Below, piece by piece: positions 38,357 to 48,080 of a DNA stretch of 64,000 bases (positions within the stretch are counted from its first letter, which is position 1; every line of letters starts with the position of its first letter). The notes under the pieces were generated by a model that saw nothing but the letters and a program-made list of their open reading frames with translations, did not search any database and had not been told where the DNA came from. The stretch lies in the NCBI RefSeq assembly GCF_037335815.1, contig NZ_CP147841.1:1234591-1298590 (forward strand), read 5' to 3'. Made by a program: the position numbers and the translations under genes. Source of the DNA: Salinirubellus litoreus. GTDB lineage: Archaea; Halobacteriota; Halobacteria; Halobacteriales; Haloarculaceae.

Positions 38357-39223
38357 TCATTCCGCCCAGACCTGCCCGAAGGCCTCGAAGAACTCGGCGT
38401 CGGTCCCGAGGAGTTCGTGGCGGGCCCGGAGGGTTCTCGCGCGCGCGGCCACGTCGTCCACGTGCGCGTCGAGGCGCTGGCGGTAGCTCTCGCGCCGGCG
38501 GTTCCCGAGGTGCGTTCGGAGGGTGCGCTCCTCCTCGAGCCCCTCGACGACGGCGTCGCCCGAGACGGGGAGGTCCCGCTCGACGGGATCGATGACCCGC
38601 GCGAGGACGAGCTTGTTCCGCGCGAGCGCTTCGAGCCCCCGTTCGATCTCGTCGGCCGGTTCGAGGAAGTCGCTCGCCACCAGCACGAGCGAGCGCGAGC
38701 CGATGGTCGCGGCGTAGGACTCGAGCGCCCGCCCGAAGTCGGCGTCGCCGGCCGGTTCGATGGCGTTGAGCGTGTCGACCAGCCCGAGCACCTCCCCCCG
38801 GTTCGAGCGGCCGCGGTCGAGCCGGTCGTACGTCTCGTCGAACCGGACGAACCGGAAGTCGTTGTGCTCGCGGGCGACGAGGTAGGCGAAGCCCAGCCCC
38901 AGTTTGGCGGCGAACTCGAACTTCGTGGGGAGGCCCTCCTCGCCCGCGAAGTCCATCGACGCCGAGGAGTCGAGCAGGACGTGGACCGTGAGGTTGCGCT
39001 CGGCCTCGTACTCCTTGACGTAGAACTCGTCGGTGCGGGCGAACAGCTTCCAGTCGATCCGCCGGGTGTCGTCGCCCGGGGCGTACCGCCGGTAGTCCGC
39101 GAACGTGAGCCCCTCGCCGCGCTCGGCCGAGCGCTGCTCGCCCTGGAACTGCGAGGCGACGTTGCGCTTCTGCGAGCGGGCGTAGCGCTCGATCTCGTCG
39201 AGGAACCCCGGTTCGATGGTCAT
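38357..39223 (-). CDS. DUF58 domain protein (vWA-like, MoxR-associated)
   Basis: 288 aa; characteristic DUF58 core (FADYRRYAPGDDTRRIDWKLFARTDEFYVKEYEAE...LLDSSASM); immediately downstream of MoxR ATPase. Confidence 0.8.
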   Translation of the reverse strand: MTIEPGFLDEIERYARSQKRNVASQFQGEQRSAERGEGLTFADYRRYAPGDDTRRIDWKLFARTDEFYVKEYEAERNLTVHVLLDSSASMDFAGEEGLPTKFEFAAKLGLGFAYLVAREHNDFRFVRFDETYDRLDRGRSNRGEVLGLVDTLNAIEPAGDADFGRALESYAATIGSRSLVLVASDFLEPADEIERGLEALARNKLVLARVIDPVERDLPVSGDAVVEGLEEERTLRTHLGNRRRESYRQRLDAHVDDVAARARTLRARHELLGTDAEFFEAFGQVWAE

Positions 39224-39239
39224 GGCCGGAGTGGTCGTC

Positions 39240-42032
39240 TCACAGCAGTTCCTCGACGGCGTCGTCGGAGGTCATCCCCTCGCGCTCGGCCCGGAAGTCG
39301 ACGATGATCCGGTGGCGGAGCACTGGCTTTGCCATCGCCTCGATGTCGGCCTCGCTGACGTACGAGCGGCCCTCCAGGAGCGCACGGGCCTTCCCCGTCA
39401 CGACGAGCGCCATGCTCGCCCGCGGGGAGGCCCCGTACTCGATGTGGTCCGCCTCGCGGGTCTCGCGGACGAGCCCCACGGCTCGGTCACGGATGTCCTC
39501 GGCGATCGGTACCTCGCGGGTGAGCTCCTGGGCCTCCCGGAGCTCCGCCCGGTCGAGCACGGTCTCGACGGGGATCGTCCGGTCGAGCCGCGAGGTGTAG
39601 CGGTCGACGACCTCGATCTCCTCCTCCAGCGAGGGATAGTCGACGAGGATCTTCAGCAGGAAGCGGTCGGACTGCGCCTCGGGCAACGCGTAGGTGTTGT
39701 GGTTGATGCCGCACGCGCCGAGCCCAGCGAGGTAGTTGTGGGTCTCCGGGACGCTCAGCCCAACGACCGGCCCCTCGTAGGGTTCGCGTTCGATGCTCGT
39801 CACCCGGTCGTAGAACACGTCGCCATCGACCAGTCCGCGGAGGTACTCGGTCAGCTCTGTGGCCTCGTCGATACGGTCGGTGTACTCCTCGACGACGTAC
39901 GAGACGGCCTCGCGGGGTCGTTCCTCCGACTCGTAGGCGCTCCAGACTTGGTGTTTCGTCAGTCCAGATCCGTCGACGACGTCGGTCAGCGACAGGCCAC
40001 ACGCCCTCGCGGTGTCGCCGAGGTCGTCGACGATGCTCGTCCGGAGGTCCCGTCCTCGCCGGTCGGCGAGCGTCCGCTCGGCGTCCTCGAGGAACGACTC
40101 GAAGTGGCTCGTCGCCATCCGGTCGCGTCGTTCCCCGAGCCACCGGTAGGAGTTATACCAGTCCCGCTCGGAGAGCGGCGAGTCGTGTTTCATCCCGAGC
40201 CGGTCGACGACTCGATCGACGGGCTCGGCCGGAAGCGGGGTCGTTCGGTGAGCCGACTCGAACGCCTCGACGTCGGGCTCGTCCCCGCGCCACTCGAACC
40301 GGTCGAGGTACCGCGCGACGTCCTCGCCCTGTATCCGCACCTCGAAGCGGTCCTCGCGCTCGTACAGCCACGGGACGATGCCCTCCCCGAGGAGGAGATG
40401 AGCAACGAGGTTCGTCAGGGTGCGGTCGGTCTGGACGAACGTCACGCGACGCTGTTCCGCGTCGTAGTGGGACTCGGTGAGCAGGAACGTCTCGAGGAAC
40501 GGACGCTTGAACGCCTCGGGGGCCGAGAGGAGTCGTTCGGGCTCGTGAAGGTGGTAGCGCTCGGCGAGGTAGTCGACGAACGGCTTCGAGTCGACCGTAG
40601 CCTCGCGTCCGGTGTCGTCCTCGCGGATGCGCACGTCGAGGCCGACGCGCTCGACGATGTCGATCCATCGGTCGAGGAGGTTGGGGAGGTTCTTCTGGCG
40701 TACGGCGACGCTCGAATCGGTTACGTGGCCCTCGGCGAGGACGAGGCCGAGGAGGAGACCCGCCTCCTCGTCCGTGAGCTCGTCATCGATTCGGTGTCTC
40801 GCGTGCGATTCGGTGTGATCGCCGCCTTCGACGTTGGCGCTACGGAGTGCCTCGTGGAGTGCCTCGCCGACACCGTTCTCCGTCCCGGAGAGGTAGGAGA
40901 GCACCCGATCGTAGCTGGTGCCCGCCCGGTCGGCCAGTTTCCGCTTCGTGAGCCCCGCTGCGATACGGAGGTCGTCGATCTCGTCGGACGAGAGCAGTTC
41001 GCCCTCGTCGAGTCGTTCGTCGAGTGCGGCGACCCGCTCGCGTCGAACGACGTGGTGGCCGTGCTCGGATTCGAGCCGCTCCATCGCTTTACCGTGGGAC
41101 GGGAACGGCTCCGTCGGCAGGTCCATCTCTCGTGGCGCGACGAGGTGGTCGTCCTCGTCCAGTTCGCGGGCCTTCACCCACTGTATCGCCCCGGTCCGGT
41201 TGACGAGGAACGGGTGGTCGGCCGAGACCCGAATGGTCCGTCCGGTCTTCGTCTCGACGGTGTACGTCTCGCCCTCGTAGTCCACCTCGTAGACCATGCA
41301 GGGCGTTTCTCCGAGTTCGCCACCGGGACCGAGCGTCTGCGTCGTCCCGCCGACGTCGTACATCCGGGTGTCGTCGCTCTCGTGGACGAGTTCGCCGTGC
41401 TCGCGGGCGTGTTCCAGCGCGTCGCCGGCACGCCACAGCCGGCCGTCCATGTAGAGCGACTCGTCGGGATGGAGGCTCCCCTCCTGGTCGATCGGGTTCT
41501 GTGTCGCCAGGAGGAAGAACGGTTCGGGGAGCCGGTAGGTCTCGCCGGCGGCAGTCACCTGCTTCTCCTCCATCGCCTCGAGGAGAGCGGCCTGGGTCTT
41601 CGGCGTCGCGCGGTTGATCTCGTCGGCGAGGACGATGTTCGCGAAGATCGGCCCCTTCTCGAAGACGAAGTCCCGACCGCCCTCGCCCTCCCGGATGATC
41701 TCGGTCCCGGTGATGTCCGAGGGCATCAGGTCGGGCGTGTTCTGCACCCGCGAGAACGAGAGGTCGATGACGTTCGAGAGGGTGCGAACGGTGAGCGTCT
41801 TCGCCAGCCCCGGGTTCGATTCGAGGAGGGCGTTGCCATCACACAGCAGACAGATCAGCAGGTCGTCGAGGACCTCCCGCTGGCCGACGAGCCGCTTGCC
41901 GACCTGCTCGCGGACCTCCTCGAGTCGCTCCTGGAGGGTGTCGATGTCGATGTCCGTGGTTCGCGCCGCGGTGTCGCCGTCGTACTGTACGTCACTGCCG
42001 TCGGTCGGGGTCGTATCGGAGCGGTCGTTCAT
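39240..42032 (-). CDS. MoxR-family AAA+ ATPase interrupted by a ~594-aa intein (mature extein about 336 aa)
   Basis: ATG at complement 42030-42032; Walker [10 protein letters not shown], Walker [21 protein letters not shown] | [insert] | [30 protein letters not shown]; extein junction matches MoxR consensus QNPIEQEGTYPLPEAQ exactly. Confidence 0.9.
39696..41477 (-). mobile_element. intein with LAGLIDADG homing-endonuclease domain inserted in MoxR sensor motif
   Basis: N-terminal [15 protein letters not shown] (block A-like, Ser1), block [19 protein letters not shown] motifs [17 protein letters not shown] and [17 protein letters not shown]-terminal block [26 protein letters not shown] followed by +1 Thr; embedded HTH-like segment [27 protein letters not shown]. 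Confidence 0.75.
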
Positions 42033-42060
42033 GCGTCTTCGTCGTCCTCTCGTCTGTCGT

Positions 42061-42900
42061 TCATGTCTCCTCGTTCTGGCGGATGCGGACGTTGTACTCG
42101 CGGATGATGTCGGCGTTCTCGACCTCGTCGGCGGGGGCGAACCCCGACTGCTGGGCGTCGTACGAGCCCGAGGCGGAGAATCCGCCGCCCTCGTAGGAGC
42201 GGTCCTGGGTCTCGCTGTCCTCCTCGCCGCCGGCCGAGCCGCCGATGACCGCGTCGAGATCGTCGTCACCGCCGTCGACGTCGGTCTCCTCGCCCAGGAT
42301 CTCCTCGCCGTCCTCGAGCCCGCTGTAGTCGTCCTCGTCCCGGTCCTCGTTCCCGGTGTCGAGGTCCTCTGGGCCGCCCGTCAGGTCGATCCCGACGACG
42401 CTCGCCTGGACCGTCGCCGCCGAGAGGACGATCACGAGGACGACGCCGCCGGCCACCCGGCGGGTCGAGACGAGGTCGGCGCTGGACGCCCGGCGGAGCC
42501 CCGCGAGGACGTCCTCGTAGAGGCGGGCGGCGACGCGGGTCTCGGAGCCGGCCCGGGCGGCGTCCCGGGCCGTCCGGAGCGCCTCGCGGACTTCCGGATT
42601 GACCTCCTCGAACCGCTCGACGAGCGGCACGCGGACCCGGATGACGAACTCGACGACGCCCACGAGGAGGCCCACCCCGGCGGCGATGGCCTGGGGGGTG
42701 TACTCCGGGCCGGGGAGGTCGAGGCCGAGGACCGTCAGCCCGAGGTTGACCGCGAGCGTGACGACCGCGAGGTCGACGACGGCCTGGATCGCGGCCGCCT
42801 TGTACCCCTCGCGCCGGACCCGGCCGACGGCCCGTTCGACCCGCTCGCGGGCCTCGCCGACCGGGAGGCGCTCGTCGGTCGTCCGACTACCCTCCGCCAC
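42061..42900 (-). CDS. hypothetical membrane protein in MoxR/vWA cluster (four TM helices, acidic C-terminal tail)
   Basis: GTG start at 42898-42900; [26 protein letters not shown]..., D/E/G-rich tail; 28 nt upstream of MoxR start. Confidence 0.6.
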
Positions 42901-42903
42901 GGT

Positions 42904-43599
42904 TCAGGGCCTCCTCGACGGCTGGGGCTCGTCCCGCGAGGACGAAGACGAGGACGAGGAGCGTGCCTCCTCCAGCTGCTGTTCGAGCTGCTCGATCCGG
43001 TTCTCCTGATCGCTTACGGTCTGCTGGAGCGACTCGATCTGGTTCTCCTGTGCGGTGACGGTCCGGCGGAGCTCCGTGTTCTCGTCCTCGAGCTGGTTCA
43101 CCTCCTCCTCCAGTTCGGCCACCTCCTCCTCGAGGTCCTCGCGCTGCTGTTCGAGGGTGTCGACCTGGTTCCGGAGCCGGTTCCGCTCCTGTTGGAGCTG
43201 GTTTACGTCCTGCTCCAGGCGGTCGCGCTCCTGTCTCGCCTGCTGGAGCTCCCCGCGTGCGGTCTGGAGCGAGTCCTGCGTCTCGGCGAGTTCGCTCTCC
43301 GCCTGACTGAGCTGCTGTTCGGTCTCCCGGAGGTCCTCCGTGACCTGCTGGAGGTCCCGCTGTCGGGTCTCTATGCTCTCGTTCACCTGCTCGAGCTCGT
43401 TGCGCGCACTCCGTAGCTCCGAGCGGGTCTCGGAGAGGTCCTCCCGGAGCTGCTGGTTCTGCGTGCGCAGCTGATCGTTCTGCTGGCGCATGTCCGACAC
43501 CGACTCCTGGTAGAACATCGTCGCGCCGGCCGTCCCGGCGACGCTGACGGCGATGAGCAACACGAGCGCGAGGTTGATGCTGCTTCCGATGAGTTTCAT
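42904..43599 (-). CDS. coiled-coil protein with N-terminal signal/anchor (Q/E/L heptad-rich)
   Basis: MKLIGSSINLALVLLIAVSVAGTAGA signal-anchor then ~170 aa of QQLxxxLxE repeats; ATG verified. Confidence 0.65.
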   Translation of the reverse strand: MKLIGSSINLALVLLIAVSVAGTAGATMFYQESVSDMRQQNDQLRTQNQQLREDLSETRSELRSARNELEQVNESIETRQRDLQQVTEDLRETEQQLSQAESELAETQDSLQTARGELQQARQERDRLEQDVNQLQQERNRLRNQVDTLEQQREDLEEEVAELEEEVNQLEDENTELRRTVTAQENQIESLQQTVSDQENRIEQLEQQLEEARSSSSSSSSRDEPQPSRRP

Positions 43600-43659
43600 T
43601 GTGGGTCTCCAGTTCCCGGACGGACATACTTCTTGTCCGTGCGGCCGCAGTCGACTGTC

Positions 43660-46077
43660 TCAGTCGTTCTCACTCTCCACCCCCCTCCCGGTCCGCGTGG
43701 TCGCCCGACGCCCGCTCGCGCGCCGGTAGGCCCCGAGCCGGCGCGCGACGACCTCGAGCAGGAACACGATCAGCGCGGCCGTCAACAGGACCCACCCCCA
43801 CTCCTGCCTGACGTCGCGGGTGCTGATGGCCCGCTGGGTGACGACCTCGGCGATCCGTTCGGCCTCGCCCGACAGGAACCGCTCGCCCCCGGTCATCCGT
43901 GCGAGCGACGCCAGTCCCCCGGCGGGGCCGAGCGGCGCGTACTCGTCGGGGTAGTTCACCGCGTAGGTGGTGTTCACCACCGTCTCGAACCCGGTCCTGG
44001 TCGGCGTCACCGTCGTCTCGTAGGTCCGGGGGCCGACCTGGCGGAACGTCGGCGGACCCGCCGGGCGATCCTCGCCGACGTACTGGATCCGGGTGGGCTG
44101 GCCGACGCGGGTGTCCGGCGCGGAGACTACCCCGGTCGCGCCCCGCTCGGGGTCGCCGATGGCCCAGTTGACCGACTTCGTGAGCAGCAGCGAGTCCGGC
44201 TCCTGGAGCAGGCCGTCGAGCGTCCCGTCGTTTCCGTAGGCGGTGATCGAGACCACGCGGCCGAGCCCGTAGCGCCACTGGGCGATCGCGGGCGTCCCGT
44301 CGCCGGCGGCGACGAGGAAGTCCGCGCCCGGCCGCACGCTCACGTCGTGGACCAGCGGCGGGTTCGCGGTCGTCTCCACGCCGGCGGTGATGAAGTGATT
44401 CCGGTCGACGATGGTGAGTTTGTCCGAGGCGAACGTCCGGGAGTCACCGCCGAACAGCAGCCGCAGGCGGTCGGTCTCGTCCGCCCGGAGGAACTGCCCG
44501 CCGGTCACGCCCGCGACCTCCGTGAGCAGTTCGTCGTTCACGGGGTTGCCGACGCCGACGGTGATGACCTGGGTGCCCCGCGCGCCGAGCCGCCGCGCGG
44601 CCTGGACGGCGGTGCTCCCGCGGTCGTTCCCGTCGCTGATGACGATGACCGTCCCGGGGCCGGAGAGCAGGTCCGAGGCCCCCCGGAGCCCCACGCCGAG
44701 GTCCGTCCCGCCGCGGCTGTTCAGCCGCCTGATCTTCGACTGGAGCTGCGATCGGTTCCCCCCGAGCTCGACGACGTCCTGCACCCTGAACGCGCGGGTG
44801 TTGAACCCGACGATGCCGACCTCGTTCTCGTCGCCGAGCTGTTCGAGGACGTCGAGTGCGATCGACTTCTGGACCCGCATCCCCGACTGGGCGCTCGATG
44901 AGATGTCGACCAGCAGGGTGATGCGGGCTGTCCGGCCGCCTCCCTCGCCGAACGAGACCGGGAGCGTCGAGGCCAGCGCGGAGCTCTGGTAGCCGCCGCG
45001 CTCGTAGGCGCTCGGCCCGCCCGCGACGACCAGGCCCGTCCCGTTGATGACCGCCTGCTGGAGCGCCGAGACGTTCCCCAGCGCCAGGTTCGGCACGTTC
45101 TGGAGCACGACCGTCTGGTACGGCGAGAGGTCCGACGGGATCGAGTCCGCACGCTCGACGTCGTAGAGCCGCTCCAGGAGGTCACCGAACGGGTACTCCC
45201 CGCGGGCGACGTAGAGCACCCTCGGCTTCGGGACCACCCGGACGGACTTGTAGTAGACGTCGTTGGCTCCGAATCGGTCGTCGCTCTCGAGCCGAACCGT
45301 GAGTTCGTGGCTGCCGATCTCCGAGAAGGTGTAGGTGAACTCGTAGGCCCCCTCACCCGCCACCTCCCCGGTCGCGATGGGTGTCCCGTCCGCCGAGACC
45401 GTGACGGTCGCGGAGCCGTTCCCGATCCCCGCGCCGCCGACCCTGACGAGGAAGGCGTTCTGGACGCCCACGCTCGTCTTCGCCGGCCCCGCGAGGCTGA
45501 CGTATCGCTCGGGCGAGCGGACCGAGAGATCGAGCGTGTGGACCGTCGCGTTCGCGCTCCGGGCGATCTCGGCGGCCTCGTCGAGCGAGCGTCCGCCGGT
45601 CACCCGCCCGTCGGAGACCAGCAGCACGGACGACCCGCGGTCGACGTTCGCGACGACGGCGTCGCCGATGCGGGAGGTGTTCTCCGAGGCGATCACCGAC
45701 CTCGTCACCGGGACGCCCTCCGCCTCGATGTCGCTGGCGAGGTCGGCCGGGTCCGCGCCCGTCACCCCCATCGACCTCGACTCGTCGACGAGCATCTGGA
45801 CCTGCGGGTCGCCCGGCGTCGTCCGAGAGACGACGGTGTACGGTCCCGCCGCGGCGAGCACCAGACAGATCACGACGACGACCCGGGTGGTGAACAGGAG
45901 GACGCGACGGCGGCGCGGCCAGTCGCCGCCCGACCCCCGGAACCGGAAGGTGAGCCAGGCGGCGAGCGCGAGCGCGACCGGGAGCGCGAGGAGGACCCCC
46001 GGGAGTTCGACCCCGACGGTCACCCCGCGAACGGTGGTCTCGAACGACGACCAGAGGTCCGAGAGCGCGACCGCCAT
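43660..46077 (-). CDS. large vWA domain-containing membrane protein (BatB-like)
   Basis: 805 aa; N-terminal TM helices, vWA MIDAS region (LLVDISSSAQSG ... ISDGND), C-terminal TM; ATG at complement 46075-46077 abuts stop of upstream gene. Confidence 0.8.
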   Translation of the reverse strand: MAVALSDLWSSFETTVRGVTVGVELPGVLLALPVALALAAWLTFRFRGSGGDWPRRRRVLLFTTRVVVVICLVLAAAGPYTVVSRTTPGDPQVQMLVDESRSMGVTGADPADLASDIEAEGVPVTRSVIASENTSRIGDAVVANVDRGSSVLLVSDGRVTGGRSLDEAAEIARSANATVHTLDLSVRSPERYVSLAGPAKTSVGVQNAFLVRVGGAGIGNGSATVTVSADGTPIATGEVAGEGAYEFTYTFSEIGSHELTVRLESDDRFGANDVYYKSVRVVPKPRVLYVARGEYPFGDLLERLYDVERADSIPSDLSPYQTVVLQNVPNLALGNVSALQQAVINGTGLVVAGGPSAYERGGYQSSALASTLPVSFGEGGGRTARITLLVDISSSAQSGMRVQKSIALDVLEQLGDENEVGIVGFNTRAFRVQDVVELGGNRSQLQSKIRRLNSRGGTDLGVGLRGASDLLSGPGTVIVISDGNDRGSTAVQAARRLGARGTQVITVGVGNPVNDELLTEVAGVTGGQFLRADETDRLRLLFGGDSRTFASDKLTIVDRNHFITAGVETTANPPLVHDVSVRPGADFLVAAGDGTPAIAQWRYGLGRVVSITAYGNDGTLDGLLQEPDSLLLTKSVNWAIGDPERGATGVVSAPDTRVGQPTRIQYVGEDRPAGPPTFRQVGPRTYETTVTPTRTGFETVVNTTYAVNYPDEYAPLGPAGGLASLARMTGGERFLSGEAERIAEVVTQRAISTRDVRQEWGWVLLTAALIVFLLEVVARRLGAYRRASGRRATTRTGRGVESEND

Positions 46078-47885
46078 CAGAGGTCACCCCGCCACCGCAG
46101 GTACGACAGTTCGGCGAGGACGAACAGCAGCGCCCCGCTCGCGGCGAGCGGCGAGAAGTCGAGCGGCCTCGGGACCTCCTCCTCGCGCTCCTGGACCATC
46201 CCACCCGGACCGGTCGAGAGCGCCGGGGCCGAGACGTTCGACTCGGACTCGCTGAGCAGCGACGCGCCCACCCGACGCTCGCCGTAGCTGTAGAACCCCG
46301 TCTCGGTCAGGACGAGCGTCCCGGACTCGGGCGTCACGCTCCCCGCCGGCGTCTCGACGGTCGTCCCGTTCGGGACCGGCAGGCGTGCCCCCGTCTCGTA
46401 GTTGGTCGCCGGGAGCGGCTCGCGTCCCGCCGCCTCGTAGACCGCCCGCTTCCAGAACACCGGATACTGGTAGTGGAACTGGAACGCCGAGTCGTCCTGG
46501 AGGTAGCCGTAGTAGAGCAGCCGCCCCTCGCCGAGCGGCGCGCGGGCGATGAACGGCGAGCCGTCCGCGGTGACGATCGCCTCGGCGTCCCGTTTCAGCT
46601 CGGCCCGCTGGTACACCTGCGGCGGCGGGAGCTGGATCCCCCGGACCAGCGGGTCGCTGTCGACCCGAAGCGAGGGGTTGGTCGCGGTGCCGTTCGGCTC
46701 CACCGCGAGCAGTCGGCCGTAGCTGATCGAGCCCAGGTTCCCCTGCGCGCCGACGATGACGCCCCCGCCGTTCCCGGCGATCTCGACCGCCCGGTCCCGC
46801 GTCGACTGGAGCAGGCGGTCCCCGTCCACGCCCGAGAAGATCACCACGTCGTAGGACCGGCTGATGGTCGTCGGCGGGTTGTCGACCGTCAGGTCCACCT
46901 CGTCGAGCACCTCCAGGGCCGTCCGCAGGTACCGGTTCTCCTCGTTCGTGAGCAGGAGCACCCGTATCTGGGCCTCCCCGGGGCCGGCGACGTGGAGCCG
47001 GTCGTCGACGGGGAAGCTATCGCCGGGCGAGAGGCGCACCTCGCTGTTGCCCGTCGGCACCGGGAGCGTCGCGGTCCCGACGTCGCCCGGCTGGAGCGTG
47101 AGCCGTTCGCGCTCGCCCCCCAGGCTCACCGTCCGCTCGACCTCGCTCTCCCCGTAGTTCTTCACCGAGACCGTGACGTCCGTCCGCCCGTACTCGGCGG
47201 CGATGAGGCCGACGTTGTCGACCCGCCCGCCGACCTGCCTGACGTCGACGGTGTAGCCGCGCCCCCGGACGGTCTCGACGGCGGTCCGCCAGGCGTCCGA
47301 GCCGGCGAAGTCCGAGGCGACGACGATACGCGCCTCCTGGTCGCCGACGGCGGCCGCCGCCGTGATCGCGGCCGCGAGGTCCCCGTCGACGTCCGTGACG
47401 CCGGCCTCGTCGATGGCGGCCGTGGCGTCGTCGCTGCTCCCGCGTCTGAGCACCACCTCCGGGCTCTCCCTGGCGACTACGACCGAGGTCGTCCCCGTGA
47501 CGACCTCCTGTGCGATGGCCTTCGCGCGGGCGAACCGTGTCCCACCGTCGGCGTCGCCGATCGTCATGCTCGCGCTCGCGTCGAGGACTACGACCGTCTC
47601 CTCGACCGTCTCGGTGCCGCTGACGGTGACGTACGGCGAGGCGAGCGCGAGCGCCACCGCGACGATGACGAGCGCCTGGATCAACAGCAGGAGGTTCCGC
47701 CGGAGCTTCTCGAGGGCGGGGCTGTCCGTGCCGGCCTCGTCGCCCGACTCGAGGAACTCCAGGGTCGGCAACCGGAGCCGGGTCGGCTCCGGCCGCACTA
47801 GGTAGAGGAGGGCGAGCGGGACGAGGGCGGCGAGGGCGGCGAGGCCCAGCGGGGTGAGGAAGACGTCCGCGAGTCCTGCCATCAT
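46077..47885 (-). CDS. BatA-like vWA domain membrane protein
   Basis: N-terminal two TM helices, vWA core (VVVLDASASM ... VVASDFAGS); start ATG pair MM about 47880-47886 (track GTG at 47921). Confidence 0.75.
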   Translation of the reverse strand: MMAGLADVFLTPLGLAALAALVPLALLYLVRPEPTRLRLPTLEFLESGDEAGTDSPALEKLRRNLLLLIQALVIVAVALALASPYVTVSGTETVEETVVVLDASASMTIGDADGGTRFARAKAIAQEVVTGTTSVVVARESPEVVLRRGSSDDATAAIDEAGVTDVDGDLAAAITAAAAVGDQEARIVVASDFAGSDAWRTAVETVRGRGYTVDVRQVGGRVDNVGLIAAEYGRTDVTVSVKNYGESEVERTVSLGGERERLTLQPGDVGTATLPVPTGNSEVRLSPGDSFPVDDRLHVAGPGEAQIRVLLLTNEENRYLRTALEVLDEVDLTVDNPPTTISRSYDVVIFSGVDGDRLLQSTRDRAVEIAGNGGGVIVGAQGNLGSISYGRLLAVEPNGTATNPSLRVDSDPLVRGIQLPPPQVYQRAELKRDAEAIVTADGSPFIARAPLGEGRLLYYGYLQDDSAFQFHYQYPVFWKRAVYEAAGREPLPATNYETGARLPVPNGTTVETPAGSVTPESGTLVLTETGFYSYGERRVGASLLSESESNVSAPALSTGPGGMVQEREEEVPRPLDFSPLAASGALLFVLAELSYLRWRGDL

Positions 47886-48080
47886 TCGGTCCAGCGTGTG
47901 GGTGGATAAGGGTCTTTCCACCGTCGTCCGCGTTAGGCCGGGCGTAAGTCACCCCCTCGGACACCCGCCCCACTCGATCCGTCGTGGGCGACCGGACCAC
48001 CGGGTGCGGTGACGACCTCGCCACGGTGTTCCGGGCGCTACGTCCGGGCCCCTCGGGAGGTGTCGTCGACGGCTACGGGC

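What the first reader, a model, noticed from the sequence alone, without database searches (positions are those of the whole stretch)
39696..41477. Large LAGLIDADG intein splitting the conserved QEG|TY sensor motif of a MoxR AAA+ ATPase, with apparent Ser1 nucleophile and an embedded HTH
The MoxR ORF is about 930 aa where MoxR proteins are normally about 320-340 aa. Removing residues SLHPDES...GINHN (594 aa) rejoins ...[10 protein letters not shown] to [26 protein letters not shown], which is exactly the MoxR consensus. The insert has the intein block structure: block A-like [12 protein letters not shown], block B SADHPFLV, two LAGLIDADG motifs, and C-terminal [15 protein letters not shown] followed by Thr. 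I am not aware of MoxR being a known intein host. Ser1 inteins are uncommon. The endonuclease region also contains a helix-turn-helix-like segment. The host ATPase sits in a MoxR-DUF58-vWA operon, so splicing would gate that whole system.
Basis: partly seen in the sequence, partly recalled or inferred. Interest (0 to 1): 0.7.

Follow-up and report, generated by a model that had tools for sequence, protein, structure and literature searches.

The report
Mobile intein inside a MoxR ATPase
A 594-residue self-splicing, self-propagating protein insert (an intein with a homing endonuclease) interrupts the catalytic core of a haloarchaeal MoxR ATPase gene; the element is real and looks active, but it is an ordinary kind of element in a host protein that the searchable literature has not described.

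Summary
On the minus strand, CDS 39243-42032 encodes a 930-aa MoxR precursor. Codons 186-779 (window 39696-41477) form a 594-aa in-frame insert between ...[10 protein letters not shown] and [12 protein letters not shown].

The insert is an intein:
- It passes the Pfam Intein_splicing, Pfam LAGLIDADG_3 and NCBIfam intein_Nterm cut-offs.
- A confident AlphaFold model matches the solved intein endonucleases PI-TkoII, TliVMA and PI-PfuI.
- Ser1, the block B His, the terminal His-Asn and Thr+1 are invariant in 42 copies.

Orthologous operons 83-92% identical in DNA lack exactly these 1782 nt. Another pair with 99.1% identical exteins differs only by the intein. The endonuclease core is under strong purifying selection (dN/dS 0.09), so the element is probably still homing.

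The same site is occupied in Halobacteria, Nanohaloarchaeota and freshwater DPANN archaea. It is rare: about 20-36 clusters among 1.84 billion representatives.

The embedded HTH is supported by fold (Xre/Cro-like) but is below Pfam thresholds. One atypical feature is that the block F aspartate is an invariant glycine.

No searchable paper names MoxR as an intein host, though JGI auto-annotation already labels such proteins. Verdict: a new member of a known kind, of modest interest. "Gating the operon" is unsupported speculation.

The parts
39240..42032 (-). MoxR (AAA_3) precursor gene with intein. The CDS is 39243-42032 (930 aa) and the stop codon is 39240-39242.
   Evidence: ORF list and translation. 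Pfam AAA_3 3.4e-54 and AAA_lid_2 1.5e-21. The start at ATG 42032 is supported by the N-termini of homologues.
41478..42032 (-). N-extein, aa 1-185. It holds Walker A (GLAKT, aa 75-79), Walker B (LADEINR, aa 135-141) and sensor-1 (ATQNP, aa 176-180), and ends in Gly-1 (G185).
   Evidence: G185 is invariant in alignment A1. The motif names rest on my own knowledge of AAA+ proteins.
39696..41477 (-). Intein, 594 aa: Ser1 ... His593-Asn594, followed by Thr+1.
   Evidence: Pfam Intein_splicing 67.8 bits (cut-off 35.8) and LAGLIDADG_3 45.4 bits (cut-off 22.5). NCBIfam TIGR01445 29.8 bits (cut-off 24.5). phmmer to PI-PkoII 2cw7, 2.3e-12. AF2 pLDDT 90.3 and Foldseek 2cw7 2e-20. Exactly absent from orthologous loci.
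41103..41477 (-). N-terminal half of the Hint (splicing) domain, intein aa 1-125. Block A is [12 protein letters not shown] and block B is S85-A-D-H88.
   Evidence: Beta-rich in the model. S1, L2 and H88 are invariant in 42 copies. dN/dS 0.154.
40824..41102 (-). Helical accessory module with an Xre/Cro-type helix-turn-helix (HTH1), intein aa 126-218. The core is [29 protein letters not shown].
   Evidence: Pfam HTH_31 E 0.0048, 17.6 bits, below the cut-off of 27, and sub-threshold in 11 of 18 family members. The AF2 domain model has pLDDT 92. The listed Foldseek PDB hits are almost all Xre/Cro/C1-type HTH proteins (HipB, C.Kpn2I, 434 Cro, P22 c2, SinR), but with E of 0.035 or weaker. The module is absent from the 514-527-aa DPANN versions. 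It is the most relaxed segment, dN/dS 0.366.
40278..40802 (-). Double-motif LAGLIDADG endonuclease core, intein aa 226-400. Motif 1 is [13 protein letters not shown] (aa 239-251, window 40725-40763, acidic E249). Motif 2 is [11 protein letters not shown] (aa 327-337, window 40467-40499, acidic E335).
   Evidence: Pfam LAGLIDADG_3, two stretches. Foldseek matches to I-DmoI (E about 2e-7) and to intein endonucleases. Position 249 is E or D and E335 is invariant in 42 copies. dN/dS 0.088.
39822..40277 (-). Post-endonuclease helical region, intein aa 401-552. It includes a second HTH-like stretch ([28 protein letters not shown]) and a long helix leading into the C-terminal Hint half.
   Evidence: AF2 helices 417-551 with pLDDT about 90. 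Only weak sequence signals: profile against PDB best E 0.009, with TetR/HTH hits of E 0.27 or weaker, and hhalign against HTH1 E 0.0033 with probability 9.7%. The HTH assignment here is an inference. dN/dS 0.196.
39696..39821 (-). C-terminal half of the Hint domain, intein aa 553-594. Block F is [12 protein letters not shown], with Gly573 where the block F Asp is expected. Block G is ACGINHN.
   Evidence: phmmer alignments to PI-PkoII, PhoCDC21 and Pho RadA inteins. G573, H593 and N594 are invariant in 42 copies. F:4 is Asp in 77 of 96 related inteins and Gly only in this family. dN/dS 0.119.
39243..39695 (-). C-extein, aa 780-930. It starts with Thr+1 (T780), holds the arginine-finger motif SDRF (aa 788-791) and the AAA_lid_2 domain.
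   Evidence: T780, D789, R790 and F791 are invariant in A1.
38357..39223 (-). DUF58 gene immediately downstream in the same operon.
   Evidence: Pfam DUF58 1.4e-40. Same position in the orthologous loci L002 and L033.
42061..47921 (-). Upstream operon genes: BatA/VWA_2/DUF7406-8 (46077-47921), VWA (43660-46077), coiled-coil membrane protein (42904-43599) and DUF7502 (42061-42900).
   Evidence: Pfam. Colinear at 83-89% nucleotide identity with intein-less loci L001 and L002.

Best explanation
The insert is a full-length, class-1-type intein carrying a double-motif LAGLIDADG homing endonuclease. It sits in the AAA+ core of a MoxR ATPase, between sensor 1 (ATQN) and the arginine finger (DRF).

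Inferred mechanism of splicing. The 930-aa precursor is translated, and the two Hint halves (intein aa 1-125 and 553-594) fold together. Ser1 makes an N-to-O acyl shift at the Gly185-Ser186 bond. The hydroxyl of Thr+1 (T780) takes over the N-extein by trans-esterification. Asn594, helped by His593, cyclises and releases the intein. An O-to-N shift then leaves a normal Gly-Thr peptide bond in a 336-aa MoxR with the consensus ...[22 protein letters not shown].

Inferred mechanism of spread. The freed intein is a site-specific endonuclease. It uses acidic residues E249 and E335, and it has flanking helical DNA-binding modules, at least one of them an Xre-type HTH. It cuts intein-less alleles around CAGGAGGGG|ACCTACGCG. 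Repair from an intein-bearing copy then copies the element in (homing), within polyploid cells or after DNA exchange between haloarchaea.

Shown here: the in-frame insertion at a conserved site; the Hint and LAGLIDADG signatures and fold; invariance of the catalytic positions; empty and occupied alleles among near-identical hosts; and purifying selection on the endonuclease. Inferred: that splicing and DNA cleavage actually occur.
For: - Coordinates and junctions are exact.
- Curated thresholds are passed: Intein_splicing 67.8 bits against 35.8, LAGLIDADG_3 45.4 against 22.5, and TIGR01445 29.8 against 24.5.
- The sequence matches solved inteins: PI-PkoII 2.3e-12, and the PhoCDC21, Pho RadA and DnaB inteins.
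- The AF2 model has pLDDT 90.3 and pTM 0.85. Its Foldseek top hits are PI-TkoII (2e-20), TliVMA (1e-19), PI-PfuI (1e-12) and I-DmoI.
- In 42 copies S1, L2, H88, G250, E335, H593 and N594 are invariant, and position 249 is E or D. Thr+1 is invariant in A1 and in every scanned locus at this site whose downstream flank could be read.
- The spliced extein aligns across the junction with MoxR 2R44 (1.4e-73).
- Intein-less orthologues at 89-93% identity sit in the same operon. blastn shows one clean 1777-1782-nt gap.
- P0009 (intein-bearing) and P0053 (empty) have 99.1% identical exteins. Their loci are 95.5-98.3% identical in DNA, with a precise 1782-nt indel.
- Intein-bearing alleles are scattered among empty ones in the extein tree.
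- dN/dS against L003 is 0.088 for the LAGLIDADG core, compared with 0.056-0.125 for the exteins.
- All 42 copies are full length (514-633 aa) and none is a mini-intein.
Against: - No experimental evidence for splicing or cleavage exists here.
- The block F aspartate, which normally assists steps 1 and 2 (PMC10663303), is an invariant Gly in this family, so the chemistry may differ in detail.
- The last 8 residues of the model have pLDDT below 50.
- The intein tree largely follows the host MoxR subgroups, so much of the distribution is vertical. Loss rather than recent gain could explain some of the empty/occupied pairs.
- GC and GC3 of the intein (0.672 and 0.862) are close to those of the extein (0.678 and 0.929), so there is no compositional sign of recent arrival.
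Confidence: 0.92

Rival explanations
1. The intein has been domesticated as a conditional splicing switch. It holds MoxR inactive, and with it the BatA/VWA-DUF58 system, until a signal such as salt permits splicing.
For: - The insertion lies in the catalytic core between sensor 1 and the arginine finger, so the precursor cannot be an active ATPase (AAA+ knowledge).
- Conditional splicing is documented for other archaeal inteins. A salt-dependent Halobacterium intein is cited in PMC10663303.
- The unusual catalytic set of Ser1, F:4 Gly and Thr+1 could make splicing slow or condition-dependent.
Against: - Orthologous operons work without the intein at 89-99% extein identity.
- Occupancy is patchy and rare.
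- The endonuclease, which a pure regulator would not need, is the most constrained intein segment (dN/dS 0.088).
- No data here bear on splicing kinetics.
Confidence: 0.08
2. The intein still splices but its endonuclease is no longer active. It would be a vertically inherited passenger at the end of the homing cycle, and the empty alleles would reflect precise losses only.
For: - The intein tree broadly mirrors the host MoxR subgroups.
- Intein base composition is close to that of the host gene.
- In some inteins the endonuclease domain is needed for splicing. [quoted passage not shown] Constraint on the domain could therefore be structural rather than catalytic.
Against: - Both LAGLIDADG acidic residues are conserved in 42 of 42 copies.
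- dN/dS of the core (0.088) is as low as in the exteins.
- No mini-inteins or degraded copies were found.
- Near-identical hosts differ in occupancy.
Confidence: 0.15
3. The 594-aa segment is a permanent, non-splicing domain insertion: a DNA-binding or nuclease domain fused into MoxR.
For: The block F Asp is missing, and the segment contains HTH-like modules.
Against: - The Hint signatures pass curated cut-offs.
- Ser1, the block B His, the His-Asn end and Thr+1 are all invariant.
- The insert splits the ATPase between sensor 1 and the arginine finger, which would destroy the active site.
- Close orthologues lack it precisely at the codon boundary.
Confidence: 0.02
4. The insert is an assembly or sequencing artefact, a chimeric join at the junctions.
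For: None found.
Against: - The same in-frame junctions occur in 28 protein clusters and more than 20 independent genome or metagenome assemblies from different laboratories.
- A 99%-identical copy exists on an independent ENA contig (P0001).
Confidence: 0.01

Closest known systems
PI-TkoII / PI-PkoII (Thermococcus kodakarensis DNA polymerase intein-2; PDB 2CW7)
   Same: It is the best sequence match (2.3e-12) and the best fold match (Foldseek 2.1e-20, TMt 0.62). It shares the overall plan: a Hint domain split by a double-motif LAGLIDADG endonuclease with extra DNA-binding subdomains, and a length of more than 500 aa.
   Different: The host is a DNA polymerase, not an AAA+ chaperone-like ATPase. 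Identity is only 17%. PI-TkoII has the block F Asp where this family has Gly. The Xre-type HTH module was not detected by sequence in PI-TkoII, since one search aligned only the Hint parts.
TliVMA and PhoVMA inteins (PDB 7QSS, 7QSU, 7QST) and PI-PfuI (1DQ3)
   Same: They have the archaeal intein plus LAGLIDADG endonuclease fold (Foldseek 1.3e-19 to 1.4e-12, TMt 0.60-0.79). The VMA inteins also sit in a P-loop ATPase.
   Different: They are shorter (361-454 aa) and sit in different host proteins and insertion motifs. Identity is 12-14%.
Haloarchaeal MCM/cdc21 and RFC inteins (the AAA+ hosts surveyed in PMC4071816 and PMC4760082)
   Same: They are inteins inserted in conserved ATPase-core motifs of AAA+ proteins of Halobacteria. 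Their distribution is patchy and ascribed to homing and gene transfer.
   Different: Those hosts are replication proteins, and the common sites are the P-loop or near Walker B. MoxR is not among the 13 host genes listed for Halobacteria and does not appear in the main text of the archaeal and bacterial survey. The site here lies between sensor 1 and the arginine finger.
Canonical class 1 intein mechanism (as reviewed in PMC10663303)
   Same: Position 1 carries a nucleophile (Ser). Block B is (S/T)xxH. The intein ends in His-Asn. The +1 residue is a nucleophile (Thr).
   Different: The block F aspartate is replaced by an invariant glycine. Among related inteins, Asp is found in 77 of 96 and Gly only in this family. 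Both nucleophiles are hydroxyls, with no cysteine.

Membership tests
Intein (Hint-domain protein-splicing element, class 1) | In-frame insertion at a conserved site of a host protein whose homologues exist without it | tested here: met
   The spliced sequence aligns without a gap to MoxR 2R44 and to 312-345-aa MoxR proteins. Orthologous loci lack exactly 1782 nt.
Intein (Hint-domain protein-splicing element, class 1) | Cys or Ser nucleophile at intein position 1 | tested here: met
   Ser1 in 42 of 42 copies.
Intein (Hint-domain protein-splicing element, class 1) | Block B TxxH motif | tested here: met
   S85-A-D-H88 here. His is present in 42 of 42 copies. The -3 position is S in 26, T in 14 and N in 2.
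Intein (Hint-domain protein-splicing element, class 1) | Block F aspartate (F:4) that assists steps 1 and 2 | tested here: not met
   Gly573 in 42 of 42 copies. It aligns with the Asp of PI-PkoII, PhoCDC21 and Pho RadA. Related inteins have Asp in 77 of 96. The review calls this residue highly conserved rather than universal, so I treat the result as a deviation, not an exclusion.
Intein (Hint-domain protein-splicing element, class 1) | C-terminal His-Asn followed by Cys, Ser or Thr at +1 | tested here: met
   H593 and N594 in 42 of 42 copies. Thr+1 is invariant in A1 and in every scanned locus at this site whose downstream flank could be read.
Intein (Hint-domain protein-splicing element, class 1) | Hint fold and curated profile matches | tested here: met
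   PF14890 67.8 bits against a cut-off of 35.8. TIGR01445 29.8 against 24.5. AF2 model and Foldseek matches to solved inteins.
Intein (Hint-domain protein-splicing element, class 1) | Demonstrated protein splicing | not testable with these tools
   Needs expression of the ORF or proteomics.
LAGLIDADG homing endonuclease (monomeric, double-motif) | Two LAGLIDADG motifs, each with a conserved acidic residue | tested here: met
   PF14528 45.4 bits against a cut-off of 22.5, two stretches. Position 249 is E or D and E335 is invariant in 42 copies.
LAGLIDADG homing endonuclease (monomeric, double-motif) | Pseudo-dimeric alpha-beta-beta-alpha-beta-beta-alpha fold | tested here: met
   Foldseek matches to I-DmoI (E about 2e-7, TMt 0.65-0.70) and to intein endonucleases. 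The secondary-structure order in the model agrees.
LAGLIDADG homing endonuclease (monomeric, double-motif) | Site-specific cleavage of the intein-less allele (homing) | not testable with these tools
   Only indirect support: dN/dS 0.088 and patchy occupancy among near-identical hosts.
MoxR AAA+ ATPase (Pfam AAA_3) as host | AAA_3 ATPase domain plus AAA_lid_2, with Walker A, Walker B, sensor 1 and arginine finger | tested here: met
   AAA_3 3.4e-54 and AAA_lid_2 1.5e-21. The motifs were located and are invariant in A1. 2R44 match 1.4e-73.
MoxR AAA+ ATPase (Pfam AAA_3) as host | Genomic association with DUF58 and VWA-domain genes | tested here: met
   DUF58 lies downstream. DUF7502, a coiled-coil protein, VWA and BatA/VWA_2 lie upstream on the same strand. 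The arrangement is conserved in L001, L002 and L033.
Xre/Cro-type helix-turn-helix (HTH_3 / HTH_31) for intein aa 126-218 | Profile match above the curated threshold | tested here: not met
   HTH_31 17.6 bits against a cut-off of 27, and HTH_3 13.3 against 23. Sub-threshold hits in 11 of 18 members, best E 7e-5. A profile search against PDB sequences found nothing significant.
Xre/Cro-type helix-turn-helix (HTH_3 / HTH_31) for intein aa 126-218 | Lambda-repressor-like helical fold | tested here: inconclusive
   The AF2 domain model has pLDDT 92. The listed Foldseek hits are almost all Xre/Cro/C1-type proteins, with rmsd 1.5-3 A over 50-57 residues for the best-fitting ones and TMt about 0.6, but E-values are only 0.035-0.4.

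The most novel reading that the evidence does not exclude
The MoxR intein family may use a variant of class-1 splicing chemistry that is all-oxygen (Ser1 and Thr+1) and lacks the block F aspartate (invariant Gly). Another residue, for example the invariant Glu6 or Pro4 of block A, would supply the missing function. This could make splicing intrinsically slow or condition-dependent, so that the intein acts in practice as a post-translational brake on the MoxR-VWA system. In addition, the clade structure suggests the element has moved between DPANN symbionts and their haloarchaeal hosts: Nanohaloarchaeota copies are basal to Halobacteria copies, and one nanohaloarchaeal MoxR carries two inteins.
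Probability: 0.1. Interest if true: 0.55.

Novelty: new member of a known kind. Interest (0 to 1): 0.3.

Why it matters
- It adds MoxR, a chaperone-like AAA+ ATPase outside the replication and repair network, to the list of intein hosts. It also adds a new insertion site, between sensor 1 and the arginine finger. A second site, just after Walker B, was seen in one nanohaloarchaeal genome.
- Because near-identical strains with and without the intein exist in metagenomes, it is a usable marker of gene flow among Haloarculaceae-like haloarchaea and Nanohaloarchaeota.
- The invariant combination of Ser1, block F Gly and Thr+1 gives intein chemists a natural cysteine-free, aspartate-free case to test.
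- Public gene calls are sometimes truncated at this locus (P0006 starts at Met10 of the intein), so automated annotation undercounts such hosts.
- None of this changes current understanding of inteins.

Tried and rejected
- Literature. Searches for MoxR + intein, 'methanol dehydrogenase regulat' + intein, COG0714 + intein and 'MoxR-like' + inteins gave either nothing or papers that mention the two terms separately. I read two of the three such phage papers. The supplementary tables of the Novikova survey are not held, so I cannot exclude a table entry there.
- HTH by sequence. Profile searches of the two helical modules against PDB sequences gave no significant hit. hhalign between the two modules was weak (E 0.0033, probability 9.7%), so I do not claim a duplication.
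- Transfer between MoxR paralogues. Between host subgroups the inteins are more similar than the exteins (56% against 49%), and I first read this as recent transfer. The intein tree largely follows the host subgroups, so I reduced the claim to 'old association with each subgroup, plus patchy gain or loss within subgroups'.
- Composition. GC and GC3 show no foreign signature.
- Promoter and terminator scan. It was uninformative: the bacterial consensus does not suit archaea, and counts were at shuffle level.
- Other copies. tblastn found no second intein or MoxR copy in the window.
- Source organism. It was not found among GTDB species representatives carrying the intein. The closest named exteins are Haloglomus spp. 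at 81-82%.
Full report
**1. The observation**

On the minus strand an ORF runs from 42269 to 39240. Homologues all begin at the internal ATG at 42032 (MNDRSD...). This gives a 930-aa product, CDS 39243-42032.

The segment SLHPDES...GINHN is exactly 594 aa. Deleting it yields a 336-aa protein. Across the junction that protein reads ...[22 protein letters not shown].... It aligns end to end, without a gap at the junction, to the solved MoxR protein 2R44 (E 1.4e-73) and to 312-345-aa haloarchaeal MoxR proteins.

The whole protein scores for AAA_3 (3.4e-54) and AAA_lid_2 (1.5e-21).

The operon context is real, though richer than described. On the minus strand the order is BatA/VWA_2/DUF7406-8 (46077-47921), VWA (43660-46077), a coiled-coil protein (42904-43599), DUF7502 (42061-42900), MoxR, then DUF58 (38357-39223).

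**2. What the insert is**

- Curated models. Three pass their own cut-offs: Pfam Intein_splicing (67.8 bits against 35.8), Pfam LAGLIDADG_3 (45.4 against 22.5, two stretches) and NCBIfam intein_Nterm (29.8 against 24.5).
- Solved relatives by sequence. phmmer finds PI-PkoII (2.3e-12) and several mini-inteins. The alignments cover the block B region and blocks F and G.
- Predicted fold. An AlphaFold2 model built from an 18-sequence family alignment is confident (pLDDT 90.3, pTM 0.85). Its best Foldseek matches in the PDB are intein endonucleases: PI-TkoII 2e-20, TliVMA 1e-19, PI-PfuI 1e-12. I-DmoI follows, matching the endonuclease core.
- Layout along the model:
  - Hint N-half, aa 1-125.
  - A helical module, aa 126-218.
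  - The double LAGLIDADG core, aa 226-400.
  - A second helical region, aa 401-552.
  - Hint C-half, aa 553-594.

**3. Catalytic positions**

I aligned 42 copies of this intein: the window copy, 22 proteins from metagenomes and genomes, and 19 loci from GTDB species representatives. The following are invariant: Ser1, Leu2, the block B His (H88), Gly250 and Glu335 of the two LAGLIDADG motifs, His593 and Asn594. The first LAGLIDADG acidic residue (position 249) is always Glu or Asp. Thr+1 is invariant in A1 and in every scanned locus at this site whose downstream flank could be read.

These are the residues required by the canonical class-1 mechanism as reviewed in PMC10663303, with hydroxyl nucleophiles at both junctions.

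One expected residue is missing. The block F aspartate is a glycine (G573) in all 42 copies. In the phmmer alignments this Gly pairs with the Asp of PI-PkoII, PhoCDC21 and Pho RadA. Among 96 C-terminal Hint domains from the most similar 50%-cluster representatives, the position is Asp in 77, Gly in 18 and Asn in 1. All 18 Gly cases belong to this MoxR family. I record this as a family hallmark that is not yet explained. It does not exclude the element from the inteins.

**4. Evidence that it is, or recently was, mobile**

- Empty alleles exist. A search with the spliced extein returns intein-less MoxR proteins at 89-93% identity (P0029-P0042, 332-339 aa).
- The empty alleles are orthologous. 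Two of them were traced to contigs with the same operon: BatA/VWA, VWA, coiled coil, DUF7502, MoxR, and then a downstream gene that is DUF58 in L002 and is cut off by the contig end, without a Pfam assignment, in L001.
- The indel is precise. blastn of the window region against these loci gives colinear matches at 83-92% nucleotide identity, with one gap of 1777-1782 nt exactly at the intein.
- Occupancy is patchy. In a neighbour-joining tree of exteins, intein-bearing alleles are scattered among empty ones.
- The clearest pair is P0009 (intein-bearing) and P0053 (empty). Their exteins are 99.1% identical. Their loci (L033, L034) are 95.5-98.3% identical in DNA and differ by a precise 1782-nt indel at the same codon boundary.
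- The endonuclease is constrained. Against the 84%-identical copy in L003, dN/dS is 0.088 for the LAGLIDADG core. That is as low as in the exteins (0.056 and 0.125). The Hint halves give 0.154 and 0.119. The first helical module is the most relaxed, at 0.366.
- All 42 copies are full length (514-633 aa). No mini-intein or decayed copy was seen.

Together these results fit an element kept by homing rather than a dead passenger. They do not prove endonuclease activity.

**5. Distribution**

A scan of one genome per GTDB species with the intein profile found the same site...NP(I/V)(E/D)QEG|SL...HN|T(Y/F)xLPEAQ..., occupied in the following:

- a Haloarculaceae MAG (84% identity);
- Halorientalis salina;
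- a Halorussus strain;
- a Halorutilales genome;
- Nanohaloarchaeota and Asbonarchaeaceae MAGs (44-50% identity);
- at 28-34% identity, Woesearchaeota, Nanoarchaeota and other groundwater archaeal MAGs;
- one 5.3-kb contig binned as a CPR bacterium.

The intein tree has a halophile clade, with the nanohaloarchaeal copies basal, and a freshwater DPANN clade. Within the halophiles it largely follows the host MoxR subgroups, so much of the history is vertical.

The family is rare. A profile search of 1.84 billion 50%-cluster representatives gave 36 hits at E of 1e-30 or better. Of these, about 20 have the size and match position expected for MoxR-hosted copies.

The window's own organism did not appear among the species representatives. 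The nearest named exteins are Haloglomus spp. at 81-82%. I infer the source is an undescribed haloarchaeon of the Haloarculaceae/Haloglomus neighbourhood.

**6. The HTH claim**

The segment [29 protein letters not shown] scores for HTH_31 only below threshold (E 0.0048, 17.6 bits against 27). The same sub-threshold hit recurs in 11 of 18 family members (best E 7e-5).

A separate AlphaFold model of intein aa 126-218 is confident (pLDDT 92). Its listed Foldseek PDB matches are almost all Xre/Cro/C1-type HTH proteins, such as HipB, C.Kpn2I, 434 Cro, P22 c2 repressor, SinR and Aca1. The best-fitting of them superpose at rmsd 1.5-3 A over 50-57 residues. Their E-values are weak (0.035-0.4), as expected for so short a domain.

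So the HTH is supported by fold but not established by sequence statistics.

The module is accessory. The 514-527-aa DPANN versions of the intein lack it.

A second HTH-like stretch ([28 protein letters not shown]) lies after the endonuclease core. The evidence for it is only the helical model and weak profile signals.

Extra DNA-binding modules flanking a LAGLIDADG core are a known theme in intein endonucleases, for example the DNA-recognition region of PI-SceI. That statement rests on my own knowledge.

**7. How it most likely works**

The precursor cannot be an active ATPase, because the insert separates sensor 1 from the arginine finger (AAA+ knowledge).

After translation the Hint halves associate and the following steps occur:

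1. Ser1 forms an ester at Gly185.
2. Thr+1 attacks that ester.
3. Asn594 cyclises and releases the intein.
4. An O-to-N shift restores the Gly-Thr peptide bond.

The free 66-kDa intein then acts as a homing endonuclease on empty alleles. In polyploid, recombination-prone haloarchaea this converts empty copies.

All of these steps are inferred from sequence, fold and population pattern. None was observed.

Nothing here supports it, and the patchy occupancy at 99% extein identity argues that the host does not need the element.

**8. Comparison with what is known, and novelty**

The element is an ordinary archaeal LAGLIDADG intein in architecture. It is closest to PI-TkoII, TliVMA and PI-PfuI (12-17% identity).

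Inteins in conserved ATPase motifs of AAA+ proteins such as MCM and RFC are well known (PMC4760082). Ser1 and Thr+1 are accepted class-1 nucleophiles.

What appears undescribed is the host and the site:

- MoxR is not among the 13 haloarchaeal host genes of PMC4071816.
- It is not in the main text of PMC4760082.
- No paper in the searchable library connects the two terms. The supplementary tables of PMC4760082 could not be checked.

The proteins are already in public databases, and JGI's pipeline labels several of them 'MoxR-like ATPase/intein/homing endonuclease'. I therefore rate it a new member of a known kind, with one mechanistically curious feature (block F Gly), and of modest interest (0.3).

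Noticed in passing
L009:4689-9012 (Candidatus Nanohaloarchaea MAG JBDGRK010000021.1): A single MoxR ORF of about 1430 aa carries two inteins. One has Cys1 and sits just after Walker B ([10 protein letters not shown]|CVTAG...GIIVHN|TQAALLEAM). The other is the Ser1 intein at the QEG|TY site. MoxR therefore has at least two intein insertion sites.
   Followed up: partly
window 39759-39761 (intein Gly573); the family as a whole: The block F aspartate expected in class-1 inteins is an invariant glycine in all 42 MoxR-site inteins. Related inteins have Asp in 77 of 96. What compensates for it is unknown.
   Followed up: partly
L027, L029, L030, L031 (Woesearchaeota and Hadarchaeota MAGs): Weakly related LAGLIDADG inteins (23-25% identity) picked up by the same scan sit in the G1 motif GH(V/I)DHGK|C of a translation GTPase, with Cys1. 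The L030 copy has 11 in-frame stops in the matched stretch, so it may be decayed or mis-aligned.
   Followed up: no
L015-L017, L019, L020, L022-L024, L026 compared with window 40824-41102: The 514-527-aa DPANN versions of the MoxR intein lack the Xre-like HTH1 module that is present in the 582-633-aa versions. The module is a separable accessory.
   Followed up: partly
L021 (JACQKJ010000027.1, binned as Candidatus Komeilibacteria, a CPR bacterium): The same intein at the same MoxR site lies on a 5.3-kb contig assigned to a bacterial MAG. This is either a cross-domain occurrence or a mis-binned archaeal contig.
   Followed up: no
L003:6001-7782 and protein P0006: The NCBI protein for this MAG locus (736 aa, 'LAGLIDADG family homing endonuclease') starts at Met10 of the intein, although the reading frame is continuous with the N-extein. 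The public gene call is truncated and hides the MoxR host. P0025 shows the same pattern.
   Followed up: partly
L033:9613-12540 compared with L034:2552-2808: The two near-identical loci (95-98% nucleotide identity) also differ by an indel of about 2.9 kb downstream of DUF58. The extra DNA holds a DUF7562 gene and a fused Complex1_30kDa/49kDa gene.
   Followed up: no
window 39216-42107 (+): A 963-aa ORF runs antisense to the whole MoxR-intein gene. It is a shadow ORF typical of DNA with about 69% GC, not a gene. Many other long overlapping ORFs in this region are of the same kind.
   Followed up: no
window 42904-43599 (-): The operon includes a 231-aa protein with a hydrophobic N-terminal stretch that I read as a likely membrane anchor (not tested), a long Q/E-rich coiled coil and a poly-Ser tail. 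It has no specific Pfam family, and its position is conserved in L001, L002 and L033.
   Followed up: no
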